DNA of 64,000 nucleotides from Parcubacteria group bacterium (GTDB lineage Bacteria; Patescibacteriota; Minisyncoccia; Moranbacterales; UBA2206), in NCBI GenBank assembly GCA_041664225.1, contig JBAYLE010000001.1, positions 68,939 to 132,938 of the forward strand, in the 5' to 3' direction. This document shows, piece by piece, positions 4,252 through 63,500 of the stretch. Numbering within the stretch: position 1 is the stretch's first letter; every line of letters begins with the position of its first letter. The notes under the pieces are model-generated. The model was given only the letters and a program-made list of their open reading frames with translations. It made no database searches and was not told the origin of the DNA. The translations under genes were made by a program, and so were the position numbers.

Positions 4252-4266
4252 TTCCGCTCGGCGGAA
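4252..4266. repeat. GC hairpin TCCGC-TCG-GCGGA (member of TCCGCC...GGCGGA family), directly after rpmC stop; followed by TTTAACGGGG
   Basis: Direct reading. Confidence 0.5.
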
Positions 4267-17950: not shown

Positions 17951-19087
17951 AAAATAGCGTATGATCTGTCCGAAACTCAGTCCCGCGTCGCCGACCGGGA
18001 CTGTTTTATTTTTATAAGCGCCTTTAGATTCTAAATAATGGGAAATTATTTTATTATTAGCAATGCCGCCAGCCATAAATATATTTTTTTGTTCTTGGCT
18101 TTTAATCTGTAGTTTTATAATTTCATATAAACCATGAGCAATATAAAGTTGTGCGGTAGCGGCGAGGCGCTTTTTATCTTTTTTTATATTTTTTATTAAA
18201 TATTCAAAAAGGGGAATAGTTTGCAGAATGTATAGTTTTTCTTTTTTATCATAAATTATTTTTGGTTTTAAATCGGTATAGGGCTTGGTTGAATTTTTTT
18301 CCAGAAGATCAATTGGTTCGTGCTTGTAGTTTCTTTTATTTCTACAAAAGCCCAGAAAAATTGAAACCGCATCCAAGATTCTTCCGGTGCTTGAAGTTTC
18401 AACGCAGTTGAAATTTTTTTGCAATTGATTATACAAAACTTCGAATTCGTTTTTGGAATAATATTTTTTTACGTATTTATATACTGCTTCTTTATCTAAG
18501 AATTTACTCAAAATACTGATCGACATCCTGGTTGGTTCTTGAATGGCTAAATCCCCGCCGATCAGTATCTGGTTTTCCAAATGTCCAATCCGGTCGATAC
18601 TTTCGATTTTCGACTCTCGACTTTTAACTTTGAATACTTCGCCACCCCAGATTTTGCCATCTAGGCCGTAGCCGGTGCCATCCAACGCGACGCCATAAAA
18701 AGAATTTTTAATTTCATCCGCCACGGCGGATGAATTTTGAATAAATTGGTCACCTACCACAGAAAAGATGTGGGCGATATGATGTTGGACTTGAATATGT
18801 TTAGCTTTGAATTGTTTGGATAATTTTTGACCTAAAATAGTCGTTTTGTATAACGGATGTAAATCGGTCAATATAATACCGGGAGTTATTTCATTTTGTT
18901 TTAAAAAAATATTTAATTCTTTTTGAAATTTGTTAAAATTCGTGTCTTCTAGAAGGTCGCCAAAATCTTCGGAAAAATAAAGCTTTCCGTTATGGAAAAC
19001 AGAAAAATTACCAGCCGATTCAGGACCAAGGGCTAAAACTGTCTTCTTTGTGTCGAACCTCAAATCAAGTATTTTCATTAACTTCAT
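17930..19087 (-). CDS. hypF: HypF-like carbamoyltransferase, Kae1/YgjD-like C-terminal domain only
   Basis: 385 aa; VQHHIAHIFS motif typical of the HypF C-terminal domain; acylphosphatase, Zn-finger and YrdC regions absent. Confidence 0.7.
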   Translation of the reverse strand: MKLMKILDLRFDTKKTVLALGPESAGNFSVFHNGKLYFSEDFGDLLEDTNFNKFQKELNIFLKQNEITPGIILTDLHPLYKTTILGQKLSKQFKAKHIQVQHHIAHIFSVVGDQFIQNSSAVADEIKNSFYGVALDGTGYGLDGKIWGGEVFKVKSRESKIESIDRIGHLENQILIGGDLAIQEPTRMSISILSKFLDKEAVYKYVKKYYSKNEFEVLYNQLQKNFNCVETSSTGRILDAVSIFLGFCRNKRNYKHEPIDLLEKNSTKPYTDLKPKIIYDKKEKLYILQTIPLFEYLIKNIKKDKKRLAATAQLYIAHGLYEIIKLQIKSQEQKNIFMAGGIANNKIISHYLESKGAYKNKTVPVGDAGLSFGQIIRYFLTDPRN

Positions 19088-26498: not shown

Positions 26499-26537
26499 GG
26501 CCCTTAGCTTAGTTCCCGCCAGAGGCGGGCAGGGTCC
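26499..26537 (+). pseudogene. tRNA-Ala-derived mini element: acceptor/D-arm 5' segment (identical 16 nt to tRNA-Ala) + CCCGCC-AGA-GGCGGG hairpin + AGGGTCC 3' acceptor segment
   Basis: ggcccttagcttagtt at 26499-26514 is identical to 26582-26597; agggtcc is shared with the tRNA-Ala 3' end. Confidence 0.5.
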
Positions 26538-26580
26538 GAGCGCCGTAATAAAAGTGAGTTTTACAATCCGAATGTTATCT

Positions 26581-26653
26581 GGGCCCTTAGCTTAGTTGGT
26601 AGAGCGCCTCGTTTGCACCGAGGAGGTCAGGAGTTCGAATCCCCTAGGGTCCA
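26581..26653 (+). tRNA. tRNA-Ala (anticodon TGC)
   Basis: Cloverleaf readable; anticodon loop TTTGCAC; G3:U70 alanine identity pair. Confidence 0.85.
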
Positions 26654-26677
26654 CAAATATGCTAAAATATGAAAAAT

Positions 26678-28771: not shown

Positions 28772-28806
28772 ACCTCGTTCCGCCAGCTGGCGGAGGCGAG
28801 GTTTTT
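28772..28806 (+). terminator. Intrinsic terminator after rplA containing palindrome TCCGCCAGCTGGCGGA
   Basis: cctcgttccgccagctggcggaggcgagg + TTTTTT. Confidence 0.8.
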
Positions 28807-28871
28807 TATTGACTTGATAACTAATTTCCAGTAAAATTATAAAGTGTTGATAATCAAATAATCTTATATGA

Positions 28872-29426
28872 ATGGAGAATAAAAAAATTGTGATCGGTCT
28901 TTTGGGCGAGAGTGGATCAGGGAAGGACACGGTTGCCAAGTACCTAAAGGAAAAATATGGAGCAAATTTGATGCGCTTTGCTGATCCAATCAAAGAAACA
29001 CTGCATATTTATTTTGAACAAAGCTCAAGAGAGGATCAACAGTGGTTGGCATTGGAATTTAGAAAAAGATTTGGAAATGATATTTTATCGCGGGCGATAA
29101 GAAAAAAAATAGACAACACCGATGGATTGGTAGCTGTTAATGGACTCCGTTTCTGGGAAGATTATGATTTTGTCAAAGGATTTGGGCCTGGCTATGTTTT
29201 ATATATTACCGCTGATCAAAAATTGCGTTGGGAAAGGACGGCTGGAAGAGGCGAGAAAGCGGATGATGATATTACGTTCGAAAAATTTCAGGAGATGGAA
29301 CGAGTTGAAACAGAAATTCATATTCCAGAAATTGGCGCTAAAGCTGATTTTAAGATAGTAAACGAAAAAGATCCGGAATCTTTACTCAGATCGGTAGATG
29401 AAATTATGGCGAAAATACTTAAATAG
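28872..29426 (+). CDS. Deoxynucleoside monophosphate kinase-like P-loop kinase (phage T4 gp1-like)
   Basis: GLLGESGSGKDT...FADPIKETL resembles T4 dNMP kinase motifs FLSGVKRSGKDT...AGPIKDAL (from memory). Confidence 0.55.
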   Translation: MENKKIVIGLLGESGSGKDTVAKYLKEKYGANLMRFADPIKETLHIYFEQSSREDQQWLALEFRKRFGNDILSRAIRKKIDNTDGLVAVNGLRFWEDYDFVKGFGPGYVLYITADQKLRWERTAGRGEKADDDITFEKFQEMERVETEIHIPEIGAKADFKIVNEKDPESLLRSVDEIMAKILK

Positions 29427-38057: not shown

Positions 38058-38084
38058 TTCCGCCAATAGGGCGGATTTTTTTTG
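38058..38084 (+). terminator. Intrinsic terminator with TCCGCC-AATAG-GGCGGA palindrome + T8
   Basis: attccgccaatagggcggatttttttt. Confidence 0.7.
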
Positions 38085-39563: not shown

Positions 39564-40867
39564 ATATTAGCTTTGGTTACTTTAACTTTAACTATTTTTC
39601 CGATCAAATTTTTTCGCTTGCTTTTCAATTTTACATTTTTCATTGTTCTGGTTCTACCGAAGTAAAAACCGTTTTTATAACTTTCAATCAGGACATCCAA
39701 AGCTTTCCCTACATATTTTTTGTTATTTTCAAAACTCGTCTTTTTTAAAATTTCATTGAGATATTTTTCGCGATTGACTTTTTCGAGCTTGGAAATGTTA
39801 TCATGCATATTCCAGGCGGCTGTGCCGGGGCGTGGAGAATACTGCCCGAAAAAGACCATATCATATTTGGCTTCGCGCATAATCTCGGCTGAATCCAAAA
39901 ATTGTTTTTTGGTTTCTCTGGGAAAGCCGACGATAATGTCTGAGGTTATAGCATAAGGTGCTTCAGGTCTGTATTTTTGGTAAGCCCTTTTAATTTTCTC
40001 TACCAGCTTTAAATATTGCTCGGCTGTATATTTGCGATTCATTCTTCGCAAAATTTCATTCGAACCGGATTGGATGGGCAAGTGAAAACATTCGCAAACC
40101 TTTTCACATTTGGCGACTGTTTCAATCATTTCATCAGTGACGTCTTTTGGGTGATTGCTTAAAAATTGAATCCAAAAATTTCCAGGAATAGCGTCGATTT
40201 TTTTGAGTAGCTGGGAAAAATTTGTTTTGCCATCTTTGTAACTATTCACATTTTGTCCTAACAGCACAATTTCTTTAAATCCGTTTTTAGCCAATCCTTT
40301 AACTTCCTTAATGATTTCGTTAGCCGGTCTCGAAGCTTCTCTGCCGCGGGCATATGGCACGACACAATATGAGCAGAAATTATTGCAACCGGTCATGATG
40401 GGCACAAAGGTCTGATGCTTATTAGTGCGCTTGGGATCTATTGAAAGATAGGCAATGTTTTCTTGAGTTGGAGAGATATCTTTTTGTACCGAATTTTTAA
40501 TTTTTAATTTTGTAATTTTTAAATAATTCTTAATGATAAAATTTTCAAACAGCTCAAATTGATTAATTGGAAAAAACAAATCCACTTTATCTTTCAATCT
40601 TTTTTGTACGTCTTCTCTATTTGCTAAGCATCCAGTTAGAATTATTTTGATTTGGGGGTATTTTTTTCTGAGGTTATGGATCTGACCATAAGCCCGGTCT
40701 TCCGCCATCTGGCGCACGCCGCAAGTGTTAAAAACAACCAAGTCGGCTGAATTTATATCTTTAGCCGGTTTAAATTTATGCAATTCCAAAAACCCAGCGA
40801 TGCGTTCCGAATCACTTGTGTTCATTTGACACCCAAAAGTCTTTATGAAATACTTATTTCTTATCAT
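39533..40867 (-). CDS. miaB: tRNA-2-methylthio-N6-dimethylallyladenosine synthase (radical-SAM methylthiotransferase)
   Basis: FGCQMN MTTase N-domain, CNNFCSYC radical-SAM motif, TRAM C-terminus. Confidence 0.9.
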   Translation of the reverse strand: MIRNKYFIKTFGCQMNTSDSERIAGFLELHKFKPAKDINSADLVVFNTCGVRQMAEDRAYGQIHNLRKKYPQIKIILTGCLANREDVQKRLKDKVDLFFPINQFELFENFIIKNYLKITKLKIKNSVQKDISPTQENIAYLSIDPKRTNKHQTFVPIMTGCNNFCSYCVVPYARGREASRPANEIIKEVKGLAKNGFKEIVLLGQNVNSYKDGKTNFSQLLKKIDAIPGNFWIQFLSNHPKDVTDEMIETVAKCEKVCECFHLPIQSGSNEILRRMNRKYTAEQYLKLVEKIKRAYQKYRPEAPYAITSDIIVGFPRETKKQFLDSAEIMREAKYDMVFFGQYSPRPGTAAWNMHDNISKLEKVNREKYLNEILKKTSFENNKKYVGKALDVLIESYKNGFYFGRTRTMKNVKLKSKRKNLIGKIVKVKVTKANIWNLEARLES

Positions 40868-49789: not shown

Positions 49790-50488
49790 ATGATAAAATC
49801 CACATTTGATCTAGAAAACGCATTATCAGCAGATGGATATAAATTTATTATCGGTATTGATGAGGCTGGGAGAGGACCATTGGCAGGACCGGTAATCGCC
49901 AGCGCTGTCGCGCTGCGCAATTTCCAATTTCCATCCGCCAGCCGGCGGACCAATTTCCAAACAAATTCCAATAACCAAATTTCCAATGATAAAAATTGGG
50001 ATTTTGTGCGTGATTCAAAGACATTGTCTGAAAAACAACGGGAAAAAATGTTTGATTTTGTCCACGAGCATTTTTATGTCGGGGTAGGGATTTGCGATCA
50101 CGAAACGATTGACCGGGTAAATATTTTAGAGGCTACTTATTTGGCTATGAAAACCGCTCTTTCAGATTTGCGCGGCAAAATTAACTATAAGGATTGGCGA
50201 CATATAATAGTGGTGGATGGAAACAAAAAAATACCCAATTTGAGCCTGGAGCAAAAAGCGATAGTGAATGGAGATAGACTAGTGAAGTCCATTTCTGCCG
50301 CTTCGATCATAGCCAAAGTTACGCGCGACCGGATCATGCTGGAAATGCACGCAAAATATCCAGAATATAATTTTGCCCAGCATAAAGGTTACGGAACGAA
50401 AATGCATTTCGCAATGCTGGAAAAAAACGGACCATGCGAAATCCATCGCCGCAGTTTCGCCCCGGTGAAAAAGTCTCGCCAGAGATAA
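49790..50488 (+). CDS. rnhB: Ribonuclease HII (with low-complexity insertion)
   Basis: IIGIDEAGRGPLAGPV catalytic motif; ~30 aa Asn/Gln-rich insert. Confidence 0.9.
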   Translation: MIKSTFDLENALSADGYKFIIGIDEAGRGPLAGPVIASAVALRNFQFPSASRRTNFQTNSNNQISNDKNWDFVRDSKTLSEKQREKMFDFVHEHFYVGVGICDHETIDRVNILEATYLAMKTALSDLRGKINYKDWRHIIVVDGNKKIPNLSLEQKAIVNGDRLVKSISAASIIAKVTRDRIMLEMHAKYPEYNFAQHKGYGTKMHFAMLEKNGPCEIHRRSFAPVKKSRQR

Positions 50489-56697: not shown

Positions 56698-59031
56698 ATG
56701 TATCTGAAAAAACTTGAAATTTCCGGTTTTAAATCTTTTGCCAACAAGACTACGTTGGATTTTTCTGATTCGCAAGACGGTCATCGCGGAGTGACGGCCA
56801 TTGTCGGGCCGAATGGTTCCGGCAAATCCAATATCGCTGATTCGATGCGCTGGATCATGGGTGAGCAGTCGATGAAAAATTTGCGTGGTAAAAAATCCGA
56901 AGATATTATTTTTGCCGGTTCAGGGAAAAAAGCCAGGCTTGGCAGCGCTCAGGCGACTTTATTTTTCGATAACTCCGACAAAAAAATTCCTTTGGATTTT
57001 TCTGAAGTAACCATCACCCGAAAAATATTCCGTAGCGGAGAAAGTGATTATCTAGTCAATGGTTCGCGCGTGCGCTTGCAGGATATTGTGGATATTTTGG
57101 CCAAAGCCGGCATCGGACGTGAGTCCTATTCTATAATCAATCAGGGTATGGCGGACGCCGTCTTGAACGCCGCTCCGCTGGAACGCAGATCAATTATTGA
57201 AGAAGCGGCAGGCGTGAAGCAATATCAAATCAAAAAGGATAGGTCGCTCCGCAAGCTCGAATCGACTCGGGAAAATTTGGACAAGGTGAAAAGCTTAACG
57301 GAGGAAATAAAACCGCACTTGAGGATGCTGAAGCGGCAGGCAGAAAAGGCAGTCCAGGGTGAGGGAGTGCAAAAAGAATTGAAGGAAAAACAAACTAGGC
57401 TGTTTACATATCTCTGGAATAATTTTCAGCAGGAAAAAATAAAATTAAACGAAGCCAAGGAAGAAATGGGCAGAACAATGATGAACGTGCAGCGAGAGGT
57501 GGATAAGTTAACGGATGAAATCAACAAGGAATCAAAACAAGGCGCAGCTAACAATAAGCTGTCTGAATTGGAAGCAAAAAGAAATGAAAGCCGCGGTAAG
57601 CTAAACCAATTGGAGCGAGATTTGATTGTCACCGAAGGCAGAATTGAAATAGAAAAAGAAAAGCAGCAGAATATAAGAATGATCGAGGAAATCAAAACAG
57701 CCAATCCGCCGGCTGGCGGACTGGTGGATTTGAAATATGTGAGATCTGCGATTGATGAAATCAGGCGCGACCAGGAAATCTTGATTAAGAAAATAGAAAA
57801 TGTTGAGAGCTTGAAAGAACTGCAGGACATCAAAGAGTTAGCGCGATCCATCCAACAGCGCTTGTATGATCTAAAATCGGACATCGAAAAAGGAAAAAAA
57901 GAGGAAAAAATTGAACAAGGGACCAAAAAGGGAGAAATAATCAATAATGAAGCCGTGCTGGATCTGGTGAAAAAAACAAAAGAGATTCGAGAAGAAACTG
58001 GGAAACTAGAGAATGATCTGAAAAGAATTGAAGCGGAAATTTTGGAAGAAGTGAATTTTGACCGCCAGAGACGTCAGAGATTTTTTGAAATCGAAAGGAA
58101 TTTGCGCGCCAAGCAGGATGAGCTGGGCAAGCTCAAGGATAATTTTAATGAATCAAAAATTGCTCTGGCCAGAGTGGAGGTACGCGAAGAGGATTTGCGG
58201 GCCGAAGTTTCACAGGATTTAAAAATCAATCCGGAAGAATTGAAATTACAAACAGAAGAAGTTAACAAGGAATCGCTGGAAAAAGAAATTGCGCGTCTCA
58301 AAGTGCAGATGGAGCAGATTGGCGGCATTGATCCAATGGTGGTTTCCGAGTATGAGGAAACAAACAAGCGTTTCGATTTTCTGTCAAAAGAATCTGAAGA
58401 CTTGGAAAACGCCATTGTTTCCTTGAAAGAAGTTATTAAGGAAATGGATCAGAAGATAAATGAAGTTTTTGCGACGACATTTTCTGAAATTGACAAAGAA
58501 TTTACCAAATATTTCCGGATTATTTTTGGCGGCGGCAATGCCAGCCTTAAAAAAGTTGAAGTGAAAAAACGAAGCTATAAAAGCAAAGAAGAAGAATTGG
58601 AAGCGATCGGCGAACCGGGGGAAATGGAGATTGAAAATAATATTGAAGGAGAGAAAGAAAAAACAGAAACGGGCATTGATATTTTTGCTTCGCCTCCAGG
58701 CAAAAAAATCAGCCATCTGTCGATGCTTTCCGGCGGCGAAAGGTCGCTTACTTCTTTGGCGCTTTTATTCGCGATCATTTCTCATAATCCGCCGCCTTTT
58801 GCGGTTTTGGATGAAGTGGAAGCGGCCCTAGATGAAGCTAACTCAAAAAGATTCGGCAGGATTATTCAAGAGCTTTCCGACAATACGCAATTTATTATCA
58901 TTACGCACAACCGTGAAACAATGCGTCAAGCGTCAACGATGTATGGCGTAACGATGGGAGAAGACGGAATTTCCAAACTGCTGTCAGTCCGTCTGGACCA
59001 AGTTGGGCAGGGAGGAAAGATTTCGCAGTAA
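56698..59031 (+). CDS. smc: Short SMC-like chromosome segregation ATPase (777 aa, no recognisable hinge domain)
   Basis: N-terminal GPNGSGKSNIADSMRWIMG Walker A; C-terminal LSGGERSLTSLALLFAI signature and D-loop; coiled-coil midpoint is NPPAGG at ~aa 337. Confidence 0.8.
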   Translation: MYLKKLEISGFKSFANKTTLDFSDSQDGHRGVTAIVGPNGSGKSNIADSMRWIMGEQSMKNLRGKKSEDIIFAGSGKKARLGSAQATLFFDNSDKKIPLDFSEVTITRKIFRSGESDYLVNGSRVRLQDIVDILAKAGIGRESYSIINQGMADAVLNAAPLERRSIIEEAAGVKQYQIKKDRSLRKLESTRENLDKVKSLTEEIKPHLRMLKRQAEKAVQGEGVQKELKEKQTRLFTYLWNNFQQEKIKLNEAKEEMGRTMMNVQREVDKLTDEINKESKQGAANNKLSELEAKRNESRGKLNQLERDLIVTEGRIEIEKEKQQNIRMIEEIKTANPPAGGLVDLKYVRSAIDEIRRDQEILIKKIENVESLKELQDIKELARSIQQRLYDLKSDIEKGKKEEKIEQGTKKGEIINNEAVLDLVKKTKEIREETGKLENDLKRIEAEILEEVNFDRQRRQRFFEIERNLRAKQDELGKLKDNFNESKIALARVEVREEDLRAEVSQDLKINPEELKLQTEEVNKESLEKEIARLKVQMEQIGGIDPMVVSEYEETNKRFDFLSKESEDLENAIVSLKEVIKEMDQKINEVFATTFSEIDKEFTKYFRIIFGGGNASLKKVEVKKRSYKSKEEELEAIGEPGEMEIENNIEGEKEKTETGIDIFASPPGKKISHLSMLSGGERSLTSLALLFAIISHNPPPFAVLDEVEAALDEANSKRFGRIIQELSDNTQFIIITHNRETMRQASTMYGVTMGEDGISKLLSVRLDQVGQGGKISQ
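57705..57720. repeat. TCCGCCGGCTGGCGGA palindrome inside smc, in frame as N-P-P-A-G-G
   Basis: 15/16 identical to copies at 28779 and 63446. Confidence 0.6.
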
Positions 59032-63077: not shown

Positions 63078-63500
63078 ATGCTAACTATAAGATTTGCTAG
63101 AACTGGAAAAAGAAACAGAGCTCAATTTCAAATAGTGCTTCAAGAGCAGGCTATCGCTCCGGGAGGCCGTCACGTGGAGGTTTTGGGCAGTTATGATCCA
63201 CATTCCAAAAAAACAGTACTCAAAGAAGAAAAAATAAAATACTGGCTAGGGCAAGGTGCGCAGCCCTCTGATTCTGCTTTTAATCTTTTGCTGGCCAAGG
63301 GTCTTGTAACTGGCGAAAAAAGAAAAGTAAAAATGCCGGCAAAGAAAGTCGCAGAGGCGCCCGCCGAAGCAGTTGTACCAGTTGAAGCTAAGACAGAAGA
63401 AGCGTCTGCGGTTGAAGCTGTAGAAGTATCCAAAGAAGAAGTGAATCCGCCAGCTGGCGGAGAAGAGGTTGCTCCTGTGGAAGAACCAAAGGCTGAATAA
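63078..63500 (+). CDS. rpsP: 30S ribosomal protein S16 with Ala/Glu/Val-rich C-terminal extension
   Basis: MLTIRFARTGKRNRAQFQIV S16 N-terminus; ~55 aa acidic tail. Confidence 0.93.
   Translation: MLTIRFARTGKRNRAQFQIVLQEQAIAPGGRHVEVLGSYDPHSKKTVLKEEKIKYWLGQGAQPSDSAFNLLLAKGLVTGEKRKVKMPAKKVAEAPAEAVVPVEAKTEEASAVEAVEVSKEEVNPPAGGEEVAPVEEPKAE
63446..63461. repeat. TCCGCCAGCTGGCGGA perfect palindrome inside the rpsP tail, in frame as N-P-P-A-G-G
   Basis: Identical 16-mer to the rplA terminator core. Confidence 0.6.

What the first reader, a model, noticed from the sequence alone, without database searches (positions are those of the whole stretch)
28778..28795. Recurrent GC-rich palindrome family TCCGCC-N(3-5)-GGCGGA in terminators, a tRNA-derived element and in-frame inside two essential genes
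Seen in sequence: near-identical copies of TCCGCCAGCTGGCGGA occur at 28779-28794 (core of the rplA terminator), 63446-63461 (inside rpsP) and 57705-57720 (inside smc, one substitution). Related hairpins TCCGCC-AATAG-GGCGGA (38059-38075, terminator), CCCGCC-AGA-GGCGGG (26515-26529, inside the tRNA-Ala-derived element) and TCCGC-TCG-GCGGA (4252-4266, after rpmC) share the same arms. In both coding copies the palindrome is in frame and encodes Asn-Pro-Pro-Ala-Gly-Gly. This is unexpected for independent sequences in a ~38% GC genome. Inference: a small mobile or selected palindromic element, comparable to Rickettsia palindromic elements that insert in frame or to a DNA-uptake-sequence-like motif. 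A sequence-specific protein-binding or R-M-related site is also possible (it contains CAGCTG).
Basis: seen in the sequence. Interest (0 to 1): 0.65.

Follow-up and report, generated by a model that had tools for sequence, protein, structure and literature searches.

The report
Tiny palindromic repeat inserted into genes
A 16-base GC-rich palindrome (TCCGCCAGCTGGCGGA) has recently been added, at the DNA level, to a terminator loop and in frame to tolerant loops and tails of essential genes in this Moranbacteria (CPR) genome and its relatives; it behaves like the hairpin repeats of Rickettsia and yeast mitochondria but is much shorter.

Summary
A 14-mer version sits in a HypF/Kae1-like gene. That is 6 TCCGCC hairpins against 0.09 expected.

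The window is from a Parcubacteria/Moranbacteria (CPR) contig. In 2.2 Mb from about 170 related loci this is the commonest GC-rich hairpin. It has 50 copies, and the first 80 loci alone hold 30 against 1.25 expected.

Orthologue comparison shows every testable window copy is an addition:
- The closest SMC (86%) and about 60 other orthologues lack it.
- The closest S16 tails lack it.
- The RNase HII copy interrupts an ancestral (aatttcc)n loop, in a different reading frame.
- The terminator copy sits in the loop of an older terminator stem.

A genome 86% identical has a copy where the window has none. Distant species carry the identical 16-mer at other positions.

No half-site or uptake-sequence-like enrichment exists. 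Centre length varies from 2 to 5 nt, which argues against a fixed double-stranded binding site.

Best reading: a REP / GC-cluster-like repetitive hairpin element. How it spreads is unproven; an IS200-type transposase in a relative is flanked by similar hairpins. This is a new variant of a known kind.

The parts
28779..28794 (.). Exact 16-mer TCCGCCAGCTGGCGGA, the core of the rplA terminator
   Evidence: It lies 30 nt after the rplA stop; L1 is identified by Pfam. The closest relative L209 has the same element with an AGCC centre. L221 has only the outer stem with a GCAA loop.
28772..28807 (+). Whole rplA intrinsic terminator: outer stem CCTCG/CGAGG, the inserted palindrome, then a T6 run
   Evidence: RNA fold -22.2 kcal/mol. 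Sequence. The outer stem and T-run are conserved in L209 and L221.
63446..63461 (.). Exact 16-mer inside the C-terminal tail of rpsP (S16), read as NPPAGG
   Evidence: It is absent from the closest S16 tails P0122-P0126 and from the L082 DNA.
57705..57720 (.). TCCGCCGGCTGGCGGA at the coiled-coil apex of the hinge-less SMC-like gene, read as NPPAGG
   Evidence: The alignment with L081 shows a net +12 nt gap at 57711.
49934..49949 (.). TCCGCCAGCCGGCGGA inside the variable loop of RNase HII, read in another frame as SASRRT
   Evidence: It interrupts the ancestral (aatttcc)n stretch that is intact in L208.
18717..18730 (.). 14-mer version TCCGCCACGGCGGA (arms extend to TTCA/TGAA, 18713-18734) inside a HypF/Kae1-like ORF on the minus strand
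   Evidence: The same 14-mer occurs at other sites: L081:272 and about 2.7 kb past the window end. The one orthologue available (L241) is 3 aa shorter here.
38059..38075 (+). Terminator TCCGCCAATAGGGCGGA followed by T8. It has the same arms but a 5-nt centre; family membership is doubtful.
   Evidence: The L209 orthologue is TCCACTAATAAGGTGGA, whose arms differ while keeping the stem.
26515..26529 (+). CCCGCCAGAGGCGGG hairpin inside a partial copy of tRNA-Ala (26499-26545), upstream of the real tRNA-Ala. It is related to the family, not identical.
   Evidence: The same CCGCC-AGA-GGCGG hairpin flanks an IS200-family tnpA in L207.
4252..4266 (+). TTCCGCTCGGCGGAA hairpin between rpmC and rpsQ. 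It is a weak relative with 5-nt arms and no T-run.
   Evidence: -7.3 kcal/mol.
40701..40716 (.). 2-mismatch match TCCGCCATCTGGCGCA in miaB, probably chance
   Evidence: It lies in the conserved NTCGVRQMAE motif and one arm is broken.

Best explanation
The palindrome is one member of a lineage-wide family of very short repetitive hairpin-forming elements. The arms are TCCGCC/GGCGGA, the centre is 2-5 nt, and the commonest form is the perfect 16-mer TCCGCCAGCTGGCGGA. These elements are added to Moranbacteria genomes at the DNA level and turn over quickly.

Copies survive only where they do no harm:
- Intergenic DNA, where a copy inside or next to a stem plus T-run serves as, or strengthens, an intrinsic terminator.
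- Disordered tails, coiled-coil tips and variable loops of proteins, where the net length change is a multiple of three. All three reading frames of the palindrome lack stop codons, and the usual frame encodes small residues (PPAGG).

The steps above are shown. The following steps are inferred. Spread is most likely driven by machinery that recognises the folded single-stranded hairpin. Either an IS200/IS605-type (Y1/HUH) transposase acts in trans, as for REP sequences, or the hairpin is copied from another copy by template switching or gene conversion at the replication fork. After insertion the unpaired centre drifts (AGCT to GGCT or AGCC) while the arms stay paired.
For: 1. Excess. The window has 6 hairpins against 0.09 expected. 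The 80 related SMC loci have 30 against 1.25 expected. TCCGCC is the top GC-rich hairpin arm in both the window and the clade. There are 50 copies in 2.24 Mb from 169 loci.

2. The unit is nucleotide sequence, not peptide. The same 16-mer is read as NPPAGG in rpsP and SMC, as SASRRT in the window RNase HII and as PPPAGG in the L205 RNase HII. It is non-coding in terminators.

3. Copies are insertions.
- SMC apex: absent in the closest relative (86% aa) and in about 60 other orthologues; net +12 nt.
- S16: absent in the five closest tails.
- RNase HII: interrupts an ancestral (aatttcc)n stretch that is intact in L208 and many others.
- rplA terminator: the outer stem alone exists in L221.

4. 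Fast turnover in both directions. In 6.5 kb aligned at 86% nt identity, 2 of the 7 indels of at least 4 nt are family hairpins. One is window-only and one is L081-only.

5. Repeated independent hits in the same tolerant places. S16 tails of at least 5 species carry the identical nucleotides at different tail positions. RNase HII loops of three species carry a TCCGCC hairpin at three different points: the window, L205 (one nt to the left of the window's point) and L038.

6. Hairpin logic. A variant with a matching change in both arms, TTCGCC...GGCGAA, occurs in the L068 S16 tail. Centres vary while arms are constant. Tandem pairs with a second hairpin family, CAGCC-N3-GGCTG, are common.

7. An IS200/IS605-family tnpA in Moranbacterium locus L207 is flanked on both sides by CACCGCC-AGA-GGCGGTG hairpins plus CAGCC..GGCTG hairpins.

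8. The behaviour matches described hairpin repeats: yeast mitochondrial GC clusters inserted in frame in the ribosomal protein gene var1 (PMC8811140); sponge mitochondrial 15-18-nt hairpin elements with conserved stems, variable loops and tandem doublets (PMC2800124); and Rickettsia palindromic elements (PMC10969869).
Against: - No transposase, target-site duplication or conserved flanking guide sequence was found. Junctions are imprecise, with several bases replaced rather than a clean insertion.
- 16 nt is shorter than any element known to be moved by a Y1 transposase.
- No Y1 transposase gene was found in the window, its 20 kb of flanks, or about 160 related loci other than L207. These loci sample only 1-2% of each genome.
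- The L207 hairpins share only the CCGCC/GGCGG core with the window element.
- The identical 16-mer is kept across species whose SMC proteins are only about 59-66% identical. That could also reflect selection by a host factor.
- Only 84 kb of this genome was seen, so the genome-wide copy number is unknown.
Confidence: 0.45

Rival explanations
1. Same class of element, but spread needs no dedicated enzyme. Copies arise by replication template switching or short-patch gene conversion from existing copies, seeded by microhomology. Fold-back synthesis then completes the perfect palindrome, as proposed for mitochondrial GC clusters.
For: - Junctions are imprecise and replace a few bases. The empty sites already held TCC or TCCG (SMC attccg, RNase HII atttcc).
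- There is no target-site duplication and no conserved flank.
- The perfect dyad AGCT centre is the commonest form.
- Several copies sit at the centre of pre-existing palindromes or terminator loops.
- GC clusters are reported as recombination and gene-conversion hotspots (PMC8811140).
Against: This does not by itself explain why one specific sequence is maintained across many diverged species, nor why it pairs with a second specific hairpin family. No direct evidence was obtained.
Confidence: 0.25
2. The palindrome is a selected binding site for a conserved host protein or RNA-binding factor, for example a chromosome-organising protein or regulator, comparable to parS, matS or Noc sites that also lie inside genes.
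For: It is a perfect 16-bp dyad. The identical sequence occurs in many diverged species. Four copies lie within 35 kb of the window.
Against: - Centre length in the family varies from 2 to 5 nt, and the 3-nt and 4-nt versions are about equally common.
- No positional conservation: close relatives differ in which sites are occupied.
- Copies are confined to permissive protein regions and hairpin loops, often in tandem with another hairpin.
- Density varies several-fold between genomes.
Confidence: 0.15
3. It is a DNA-uptake-sequence-like motif enriched through biased uptake and recombination, with inverted pairs serving as terminators.
For: CPR bacteria depend on imported nucleotides and DNA (general knowledge). 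Neisseria uptake sequences often occur as inverted pairs in terminators (general knowledge).
Against: No 8- to 10-mer, including the half-site, is enriched in the window. TCCGCC and GGCGGA occur 19 and 39 times, and 6 of the 19 TCCGCC are in hairpins. Density is about 1 per 13 kb here and about 1 per 54 kb in relatives, far below known uptake sequences.
Confidence: 0.03
4. The copies have independent origins. They are ordinary terminators that happen to share arms, plus protein-level selection for an NPPAGG turn or linker, or a restriction-modification or methylation-driven palindrome centred on CAGCTG.
For: The 38059 terminator looks like an ordinary orthologous terminator. PPAGG is a plausible loop peptide. 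CAGCTG is a known restriction site (general knowledge).
Against: - Identical 16-mers at this rate are not expected by chance.
- The RNase HII copy uses another frame.
- Other terminators in the window use unrelated stems.
- The CAGCTG centre is not conserved.
Confidence: 0.04

Closest known systems
Yeast mitochondrial GC clusters and other mitochondrial repetitive hairpin-forming elements (RHEs)
   Same: Both are short GC-rich palindromes in an AT-rich genome. They lie mostly in intergenic DNA but also in frame in a ribosomal protein gene (var1 there, S16 here). They are polymorphic between close relatives, have conserved stems and variable loops, and form tandem double hairpins (PMC8811140, PMC2800124).
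   Different: This element is bacterial (CPR), not organellar. No AG/TAG terminal repeats or target-site duplication were seen. It is shorter than yeast GC clusters; the sponge 'blue15' and 'yellow18' elements are of similar size.
Rickettsia palindromic elements (RPEs)
   Same: Both are palindromic repeats inserted in frame into unrelated housekeeping genes at structurally tolerant places, adding a short peptide (PMC10969869).
   Different: RPEs are about 100-150 bp and encode a conserved peptide of tens of residues. This element is 14-17 nt (4-6 residues), is used in at least two frames, and also forms terminators.
REP/BIME sequences with RAYT (Y1) transposases; IS200/IS605 end hairpins
   Same: Both are short GC-rich hairpins at gene ends that act as terminators or stabilisers, occur singly or as adjacent pairs, and have family-specific arms. 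An IS200-family tnpA in a relative is flanked by CCGCC/GGCGG and CAGCC/GGCTG hairpins.
   Different: REPs are extragenic, usually 20-40 nt, carry a conserved 5' tetranucleotide and come with a RAYT gene. None of these features was found here. The L207 enzyme scores as IS200 (133 bits), not RAYT (40.9 bits against a cut-off of 80).
Neisseria DUS / Haemophilus USS
   Same: Both are short specific sequences found inside genes and, as inverted pairs, in terminators.
   Different: There is no half-site enrichment and density is at least 10 times lower. Here the unit is the hairpin, not an oriented 10- to 12-mer.

Membership tests
Repetitive hairpin-forming elements / GC clusters (descriptive class) | Short GC-rich palindrome repeated at non-homologous sites far above chance | tested here: met
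Repetitive hairpin-forming elements / GC clusters (descriptive class) | Presence/absence differences between close relatives; insertion relative to orthologues | tested here: met
Repetitive hairpin-forming elements / GC clusters (descriptive class) | Terminal short direct repeats (target-site duplication such as AG/TAG in yeast) | tested here: not met
   No consistent flanking repeat or conserved flanking dinucleotide
REP / REPIN | Extragenic location only | tested here: not met
   About 16 of 50 copies lie inside long ORFs, including four in the window
REP / REPIN | Conserved 5' tetranucleotide (GTAG-like) next to the hairpin | tested here: not met
   Flanks are not conserved
REP / REPIN | Associated RAYT gene in the same genome | tested here: inconclusive
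   No Y1 gene in 84 kb of this genome or in about 160 related loci except an IS200-type tnpA in L207. The whole genome was not available.
Rickettsia palindromic elements | In-frame insertion in housekeeping genes at tolerant sites | tested here: met
   SMC apex, S16 tail and RNase HII loop
Rickettsia palindromic elements | Length of about 100-150 bp encoding a conserved peptide domain; sequence homology to RPE families | tested here: not met
   The element is 14-17 nt. It is used in more than one frame.
MITE | Terminal inverted repeats plus target-site duplication, 50-500 bp | tested here: not met
   The whole element is a 16-nt dyad with no target-site duplication
DNA uptake sequence | Oriented 9- to 12-mer at about 1 per kb; single sites enriched, not only inverted pairs | tested here: not met
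   No enriched 8- to 10-mer. Half-site counts.
Intrinsic terminator | GC-rich stem followed by a T-run downstream of a gene | tested here: met
   True for 28772-28807 and 38059-38083, and for 17 of 50 family copies. Not true for the coding copies.
Fixed-spacing palindromic protein-binding site (parS-like) | Constant half-site spacing and positional conservation among relatives | tested here: not met
   The centre is 2-5 nt. Occupied sites differ between genomes 86% identical.

The most novel reading that the evidence does not exclude
The 16-mer is a complete, self-sufficient substrate for a conserved Moranbacteria machinery. That machinery could be a hairpin-specific single-strand DNA transposase acting in trans, or a dedicated repair or recombination route, which writes this exact sequence into hairpin loops and other exposed single-stranded spots. 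If so, this would be the smallest mobile DNA unit known. It would also be a steady source of new terminators and of small loop insertions in essential CPR proteins.
Probability: 0.15. Interest if true: 0.8.

Novelty: new variant of a known kind. Interest (0 to 1): 0.55.

Why it matters
CPR/Patescibacteria genomes are small and are thought to carry few repeats, and their proteins are known for unexplained small insertions. This finding gives a concrete, traceable source for some of those insertions: a 14-17-nt hairpin that lands in frame in S16, an SMC-like protein and RNase HII, and that also builds terminators.

It extends the 'hairpin repeat inserted in frame' phenomenon, known from Rickettsia and from mitochondria, to a third reduced, AT-rich genome type, and at a much smaller element size. 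That raises a testable question about how such a short sequence can be propagated.

There are practical consequences too. These elements create false 'lineage-specific motifs' in protein alignments. They could also serve as markers of recent divergence among uncultured strains.

Tried and rejected
- **Uptake-sequence model.** An unbiased 8- to 12-mer enrichment scan shows only the full palindrome and nothing at 8-10 nt.
- **tRNA 3'-end origin (T-loop AATCCGCC...).** No tRNA-like TTCGAATCCGCC was found in any CPR locus. The window's tRNAs are unrelated.
- **Rfam.** Only three tRNAs were found in the window.
- **Viral collection scan for TCCGCCRGCYGGCGGA.** It returned 120+ hits, mostly in 55-73% GC phage contigs, consistent with chance in GC-rich DNA. 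A few 40-53% GC contigs carry it as a repeated extended palindrome; this was not pursued.
- **Search for a Y1 transposase.** tblastn with the L207 TnpA found nothing in the window, its flanks or the other Moranbacteria loci.
- **Target-site duplication or conserved flank.** None was found. The apparent CCA / (aatttcc) repeats around the RNase HII copy are explained by the ancestral low-complexity repeat.
- **Literature searches for a prior description in CPR.** Nothing relevant was found; one search term was rejected by the tool.
- **HypF-like copy.** Only one distant orthologue (64%) was available. The window is 3 aa longer there, which is weak evidence.
- **Tool problems.** A first anchor regex for the SMC apex failed and was fixed. 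A first Markov simulation timed out and was rerun. DNA for P0003 and P0173 could not be fetched.

Full report
**What is there**

The exact 16-mer TCCGCCAGCTGGCGGA occurs at 28779 and 63446. A 2-mismatch match lies at 40701. Shuffles predict 0.01 such matches.

A 14-mer with the same arms, TCCGCCACGGCGGA, lies at 18717. TCCGCCAATAGGGCGGA lies at 38059.

Of 19 TCCGCC hexamers in the window, 6 are followed within 12 nt by GGCGGA. In a census of every 6-bp-arm hairpin, TCCGCC is the only GC-rich arm with more than two hairpins. A 3rd-order Markov model predicts 0.09.

The hosts of the copies are:
- The terminator 30 nt after rplA (L1 by Pfam; hairpin plus T6, -22.2 kcal/mol).
- The C-terminal tail of S16.
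- The middle of a 777-aa SMC_N protein with no hinge domain.
- RNase HII.
- A HypF/Kae1-like ORF.

In S16 and SMC the reading is N-P-P-A-G-G. In RNase HII the same nucleotides are read as S-A-S-R-R-T. So the repeated unit is nucleotide sequence, not peptide.

**Where the window comes from**

The SMC-like, S16 and RNase HII proteins are identical to proteins of a 'Parcubacteria group bacterium' metagenome-assembled genome. Their relatives are Candidatus Moranbacteria/Moraniibacteriota.

I collected 80 SMC-centred loci from species-representative genomes, 80 rplA-centred metagenome loci, and several contigs of close relatives. I also took 10 kb on each side of the window from the same contig.

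**The family is clade-wide**

In the 80 SMC loci (1.30 Mb), TCCGCC..GGCGGA is the commonest GC-rich hairpin. It has 30 copies in 23 loci. The next are CCTGCC with 17 and CCCGCC with 15, and the reverse arm order occurs only 3 times. The Markov expectation is 1.25.

Over all 169 Moranbacteria loci (2.24 Mb) there are 50 copies:
- Centres are mostly 3 nt (16 copies) or 4 nt (21 copies).
- AGCT is the commonest centre (11), followed by its one-step derivatives AGCC/GGCT (5).
- The exact window 16-mer occurs in 9 loci, including the window.
- About 16 copies are inside long ORFs.
- 17 copies have an adjacent A- or T-run.

The element often sits directly next to a second hairpin family, [T/C]CAGCC-N3-GGCTG[A/G], in either order.

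**Each testable window copy is an addition**

*SMC.* Nearly all of 120 orthologues read ...K-x-QSI-P-VDL at the coiled-coil tip. The window reads ANPPAGGLVDL. At the DNA level the closest relative (L081, 86% aa) has acagccagtattccg|gtggat, where the window has acagccaaTCCGCCGGCTGGCGGActg|gtggat. That is a net +12 nt.

*S16.* The five closest tails (72-92% identity) lack the block. L082 shows unrelated codons there. More distant S16 tails carry EE[VA]NPPAGGE at other tail positions, encoded by the same nucleotides: L083 has the exact 16-mer and L084 has the GGCT variant. L068 has TTCGCCAGCTGGCGAA, in which both arms changed together.

*RNase HII.* Many orthologues have the loop RNFQFPISNFQ[ST]NSNDQISNDKNW, encoded by (aatttcc)n. 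In the window, 'att tcc' is replaced by TCC GCC AGC CGG CGG ACC. In L205/L206 the exact 16-mer sits one nucleotide to the left, in the PPAGG frame. In L038 a CAGCC hairpin plus a TCCGCC hairpin sit elsewhere in the loop.

The RNase HII loop also holds other palindromic inserts in other species. L013 has a long GC palindrome. L059 and L068 have an element with terminal inverted repeats, tgtcatcctgaacttgtttca...tgaaacaagttcaggatgaca. Other species carry CCTGCC..GGCAGG types.

*rplA terminator.* L209 (94% L1 identity) has the same element with an AGCC centre. L221 (82%) has only tgaaaaacttcgc-gcaa-gcggggttttt. So the 16-mer sits in the loop of an older terminator stem. Other species use unrelated terminators at this position.

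**Turnover is fast**

The window and L081 align over 6.5 kb at 86% nucleotide identity. Seven indels are 4 nt or longer, and two of them are family hairpins. One is the SMC copy, present only in the window. The other is a TCCGCCACGGCGGA copy in the nusB-rnc spacer, present only in L081. The same 14-mer occurs again about 2.7 kb past the window end.

**What it is not**

- No 8- to 10-mer, including the half-site, is enriched. An uptake-sequence model fails on that and on density.
- The CAGCTG centre is not conserved, and 3-nt centres are common. That argues against a restriction-modification site and against a fixed-spacing double-stranded binding site.
- Different frames and non-coding copies exclude protein-level convergence.
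- Rfam and tRNA scans give nothing at these sites, and no tRNA 3' end matches.
- The 38059 terminator has an orthologue in L209 with different arms (TCCAC/GTGGA), so it may be an ordinary terminator.
- The 40701 match lies in a conserved MiaB motif and is probably chance.

**How it probably works**

Shown: a specific hairpin-forming sequence is repeatedly added at new sites. It persists in permissive places, and in intergenic copies it forms part of terminators.

Inferred: it spreads as a folded single strand. One lead is an IS200/IS605-family transposase gene in Moranbacterium locus L207 (NF033573, 133 bits). It is flanked on both sides by CACCGCC-AGA-GGCGGTG hairpins and by CAGCC..GGCTG hairpins. 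These are the same two arm types as the scattered doublets. The CCGCC-AGA-GGCGG motif is also the one at window 26515.

Against a transposase model:
- Junctions are imprecise.
- There is no target-site duplication or conserved flank.
- No Y1 gene was seen near any copy.

An enzyme-free route remains a serious rival. This would be template switching or short-patch conversion seeded by TCC/TCCG microhomology, with fold-back completion of the dyad.

**Comparison with known systems**

The behaviour matches three known systems:
- Yeast mitochondrial GC clusters, which insert in frame in the ribosomal protein gene var1 (PMC8811140).
- Sponge mitochondrial 15-18-nt hairpin elements, with conserved stems, variable loops and tandem doublets (PMC2800124).
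- Rickettsia palindromic elements (PMC10969869).

It fails the defining features of REP (extragenic location, 5' tetranucleotide, RAYT), RPE (about 150 bp, conserved peptide) and MITE (terminal inverted repeats plus target-site duplication). I found no description of such elements in CPR bacteria.

**Verdict**

This is a real, non-random, recently active family of ultrashort palindromic insertions. It is best filed as a new variant of the known class of repetitive hairpin-forming elements. The means of propagation is unresolved.

Noticed in passing
window 56698-59031: The 'SMC' of this organism and about 120 relatives is only about 770-810 aa. It has SMC_N head halves but no hinge domain hit. 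The two coiled-coil arms meet at a short conserved tip (K-x-QSI-P-VDL). A hinge-less SMC appears to be the norm in Moranbacteria.
   Followed up: partly
window 26499-26545 (upstream of tRNA-Ala 26581-26654): A partial copy of tRNA-Ala. It has the first about 16 nt (ggcccttagcttagtt) and the 3' acceptor piece (agggtcc), with the tRNA core replaced by the hairpin CCCGCCAGAGGCGGG. In the close relative L209 the tRNA-Ala is inverted relative to rplA.
   Followed up: partly
window 49916-49990 (RNase HII loop); L208, L044, L071 and many P02xx proteins: The RNase HII of many Moranbacteria carries a low-complexity loop encoded by a 7-nt DNA repeat (aatttcc)n, giving NFQFPISNFQ... This loop is a hotspot for several unrelated palindromic inserts.
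   Followed up: partly
L059 and L068 RNase HII loop; P0334, P0348, P0359: A different element with long terminal inverted repeats (tgtcatcctgaacttgtttca ... tgaaacaagttcaggatgaca) is inserted in frame, giving CHPELVSGS...QVRNDK peptides. In L016:4880 a CAGCC + TTCGCC hairpin doublet sits in the middle of such an element.
   Followed up: no
L207:600-1700: An IS200/IS605-family tnpA (138 aa) in a Moranbacterium contig. It is flanked on both sides by CACCGCCAGAGGCGGTG hairpins on the same strand, plus CAGCC..GGCTG hairpins.
   Followed up: partly
L002:11981 and L002:13561: Another species carries its own version of the hairpin, CCGCCGAGGCT[A/T]CGGCGG. It occurs both in its SMC gene (at a different site from the window) and in its S16 tail (peptide SAEASAG). 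Related 'EPASAEA[ST]AG' blocks recur in many S16 tails, sometimes twice.
   Followed up: partly
L044, L063 S16 tails; P0130, P0163: Much longer GC-rich nested palindromes (about 100 nt) are inserted in frame right after the conserved KKPA of S16, giving peptides such as PARNA...AGGAE.
   Followed up: no
L126:1064 and 10272; L089, L162, L169; L106, L112, L113, L136, L161: The same 16-mer TCCGCCAGCTGGCGGA recurs in some 40-53% GC viral contigs. It is embedded in longer conserved repeats, with two copies in one contig. These contigs are unrelated to CPR as far as seen.
   Followed up: no
L082, L084, L289 (downstream of rpsP); window end: In this lineage rplJ-rplL follow rpsP rather than rplK-rplA. 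rplA is instead followed by its own terminator and a small nucleotide-kinase-like gene (28872-29426).
   Followed up: no
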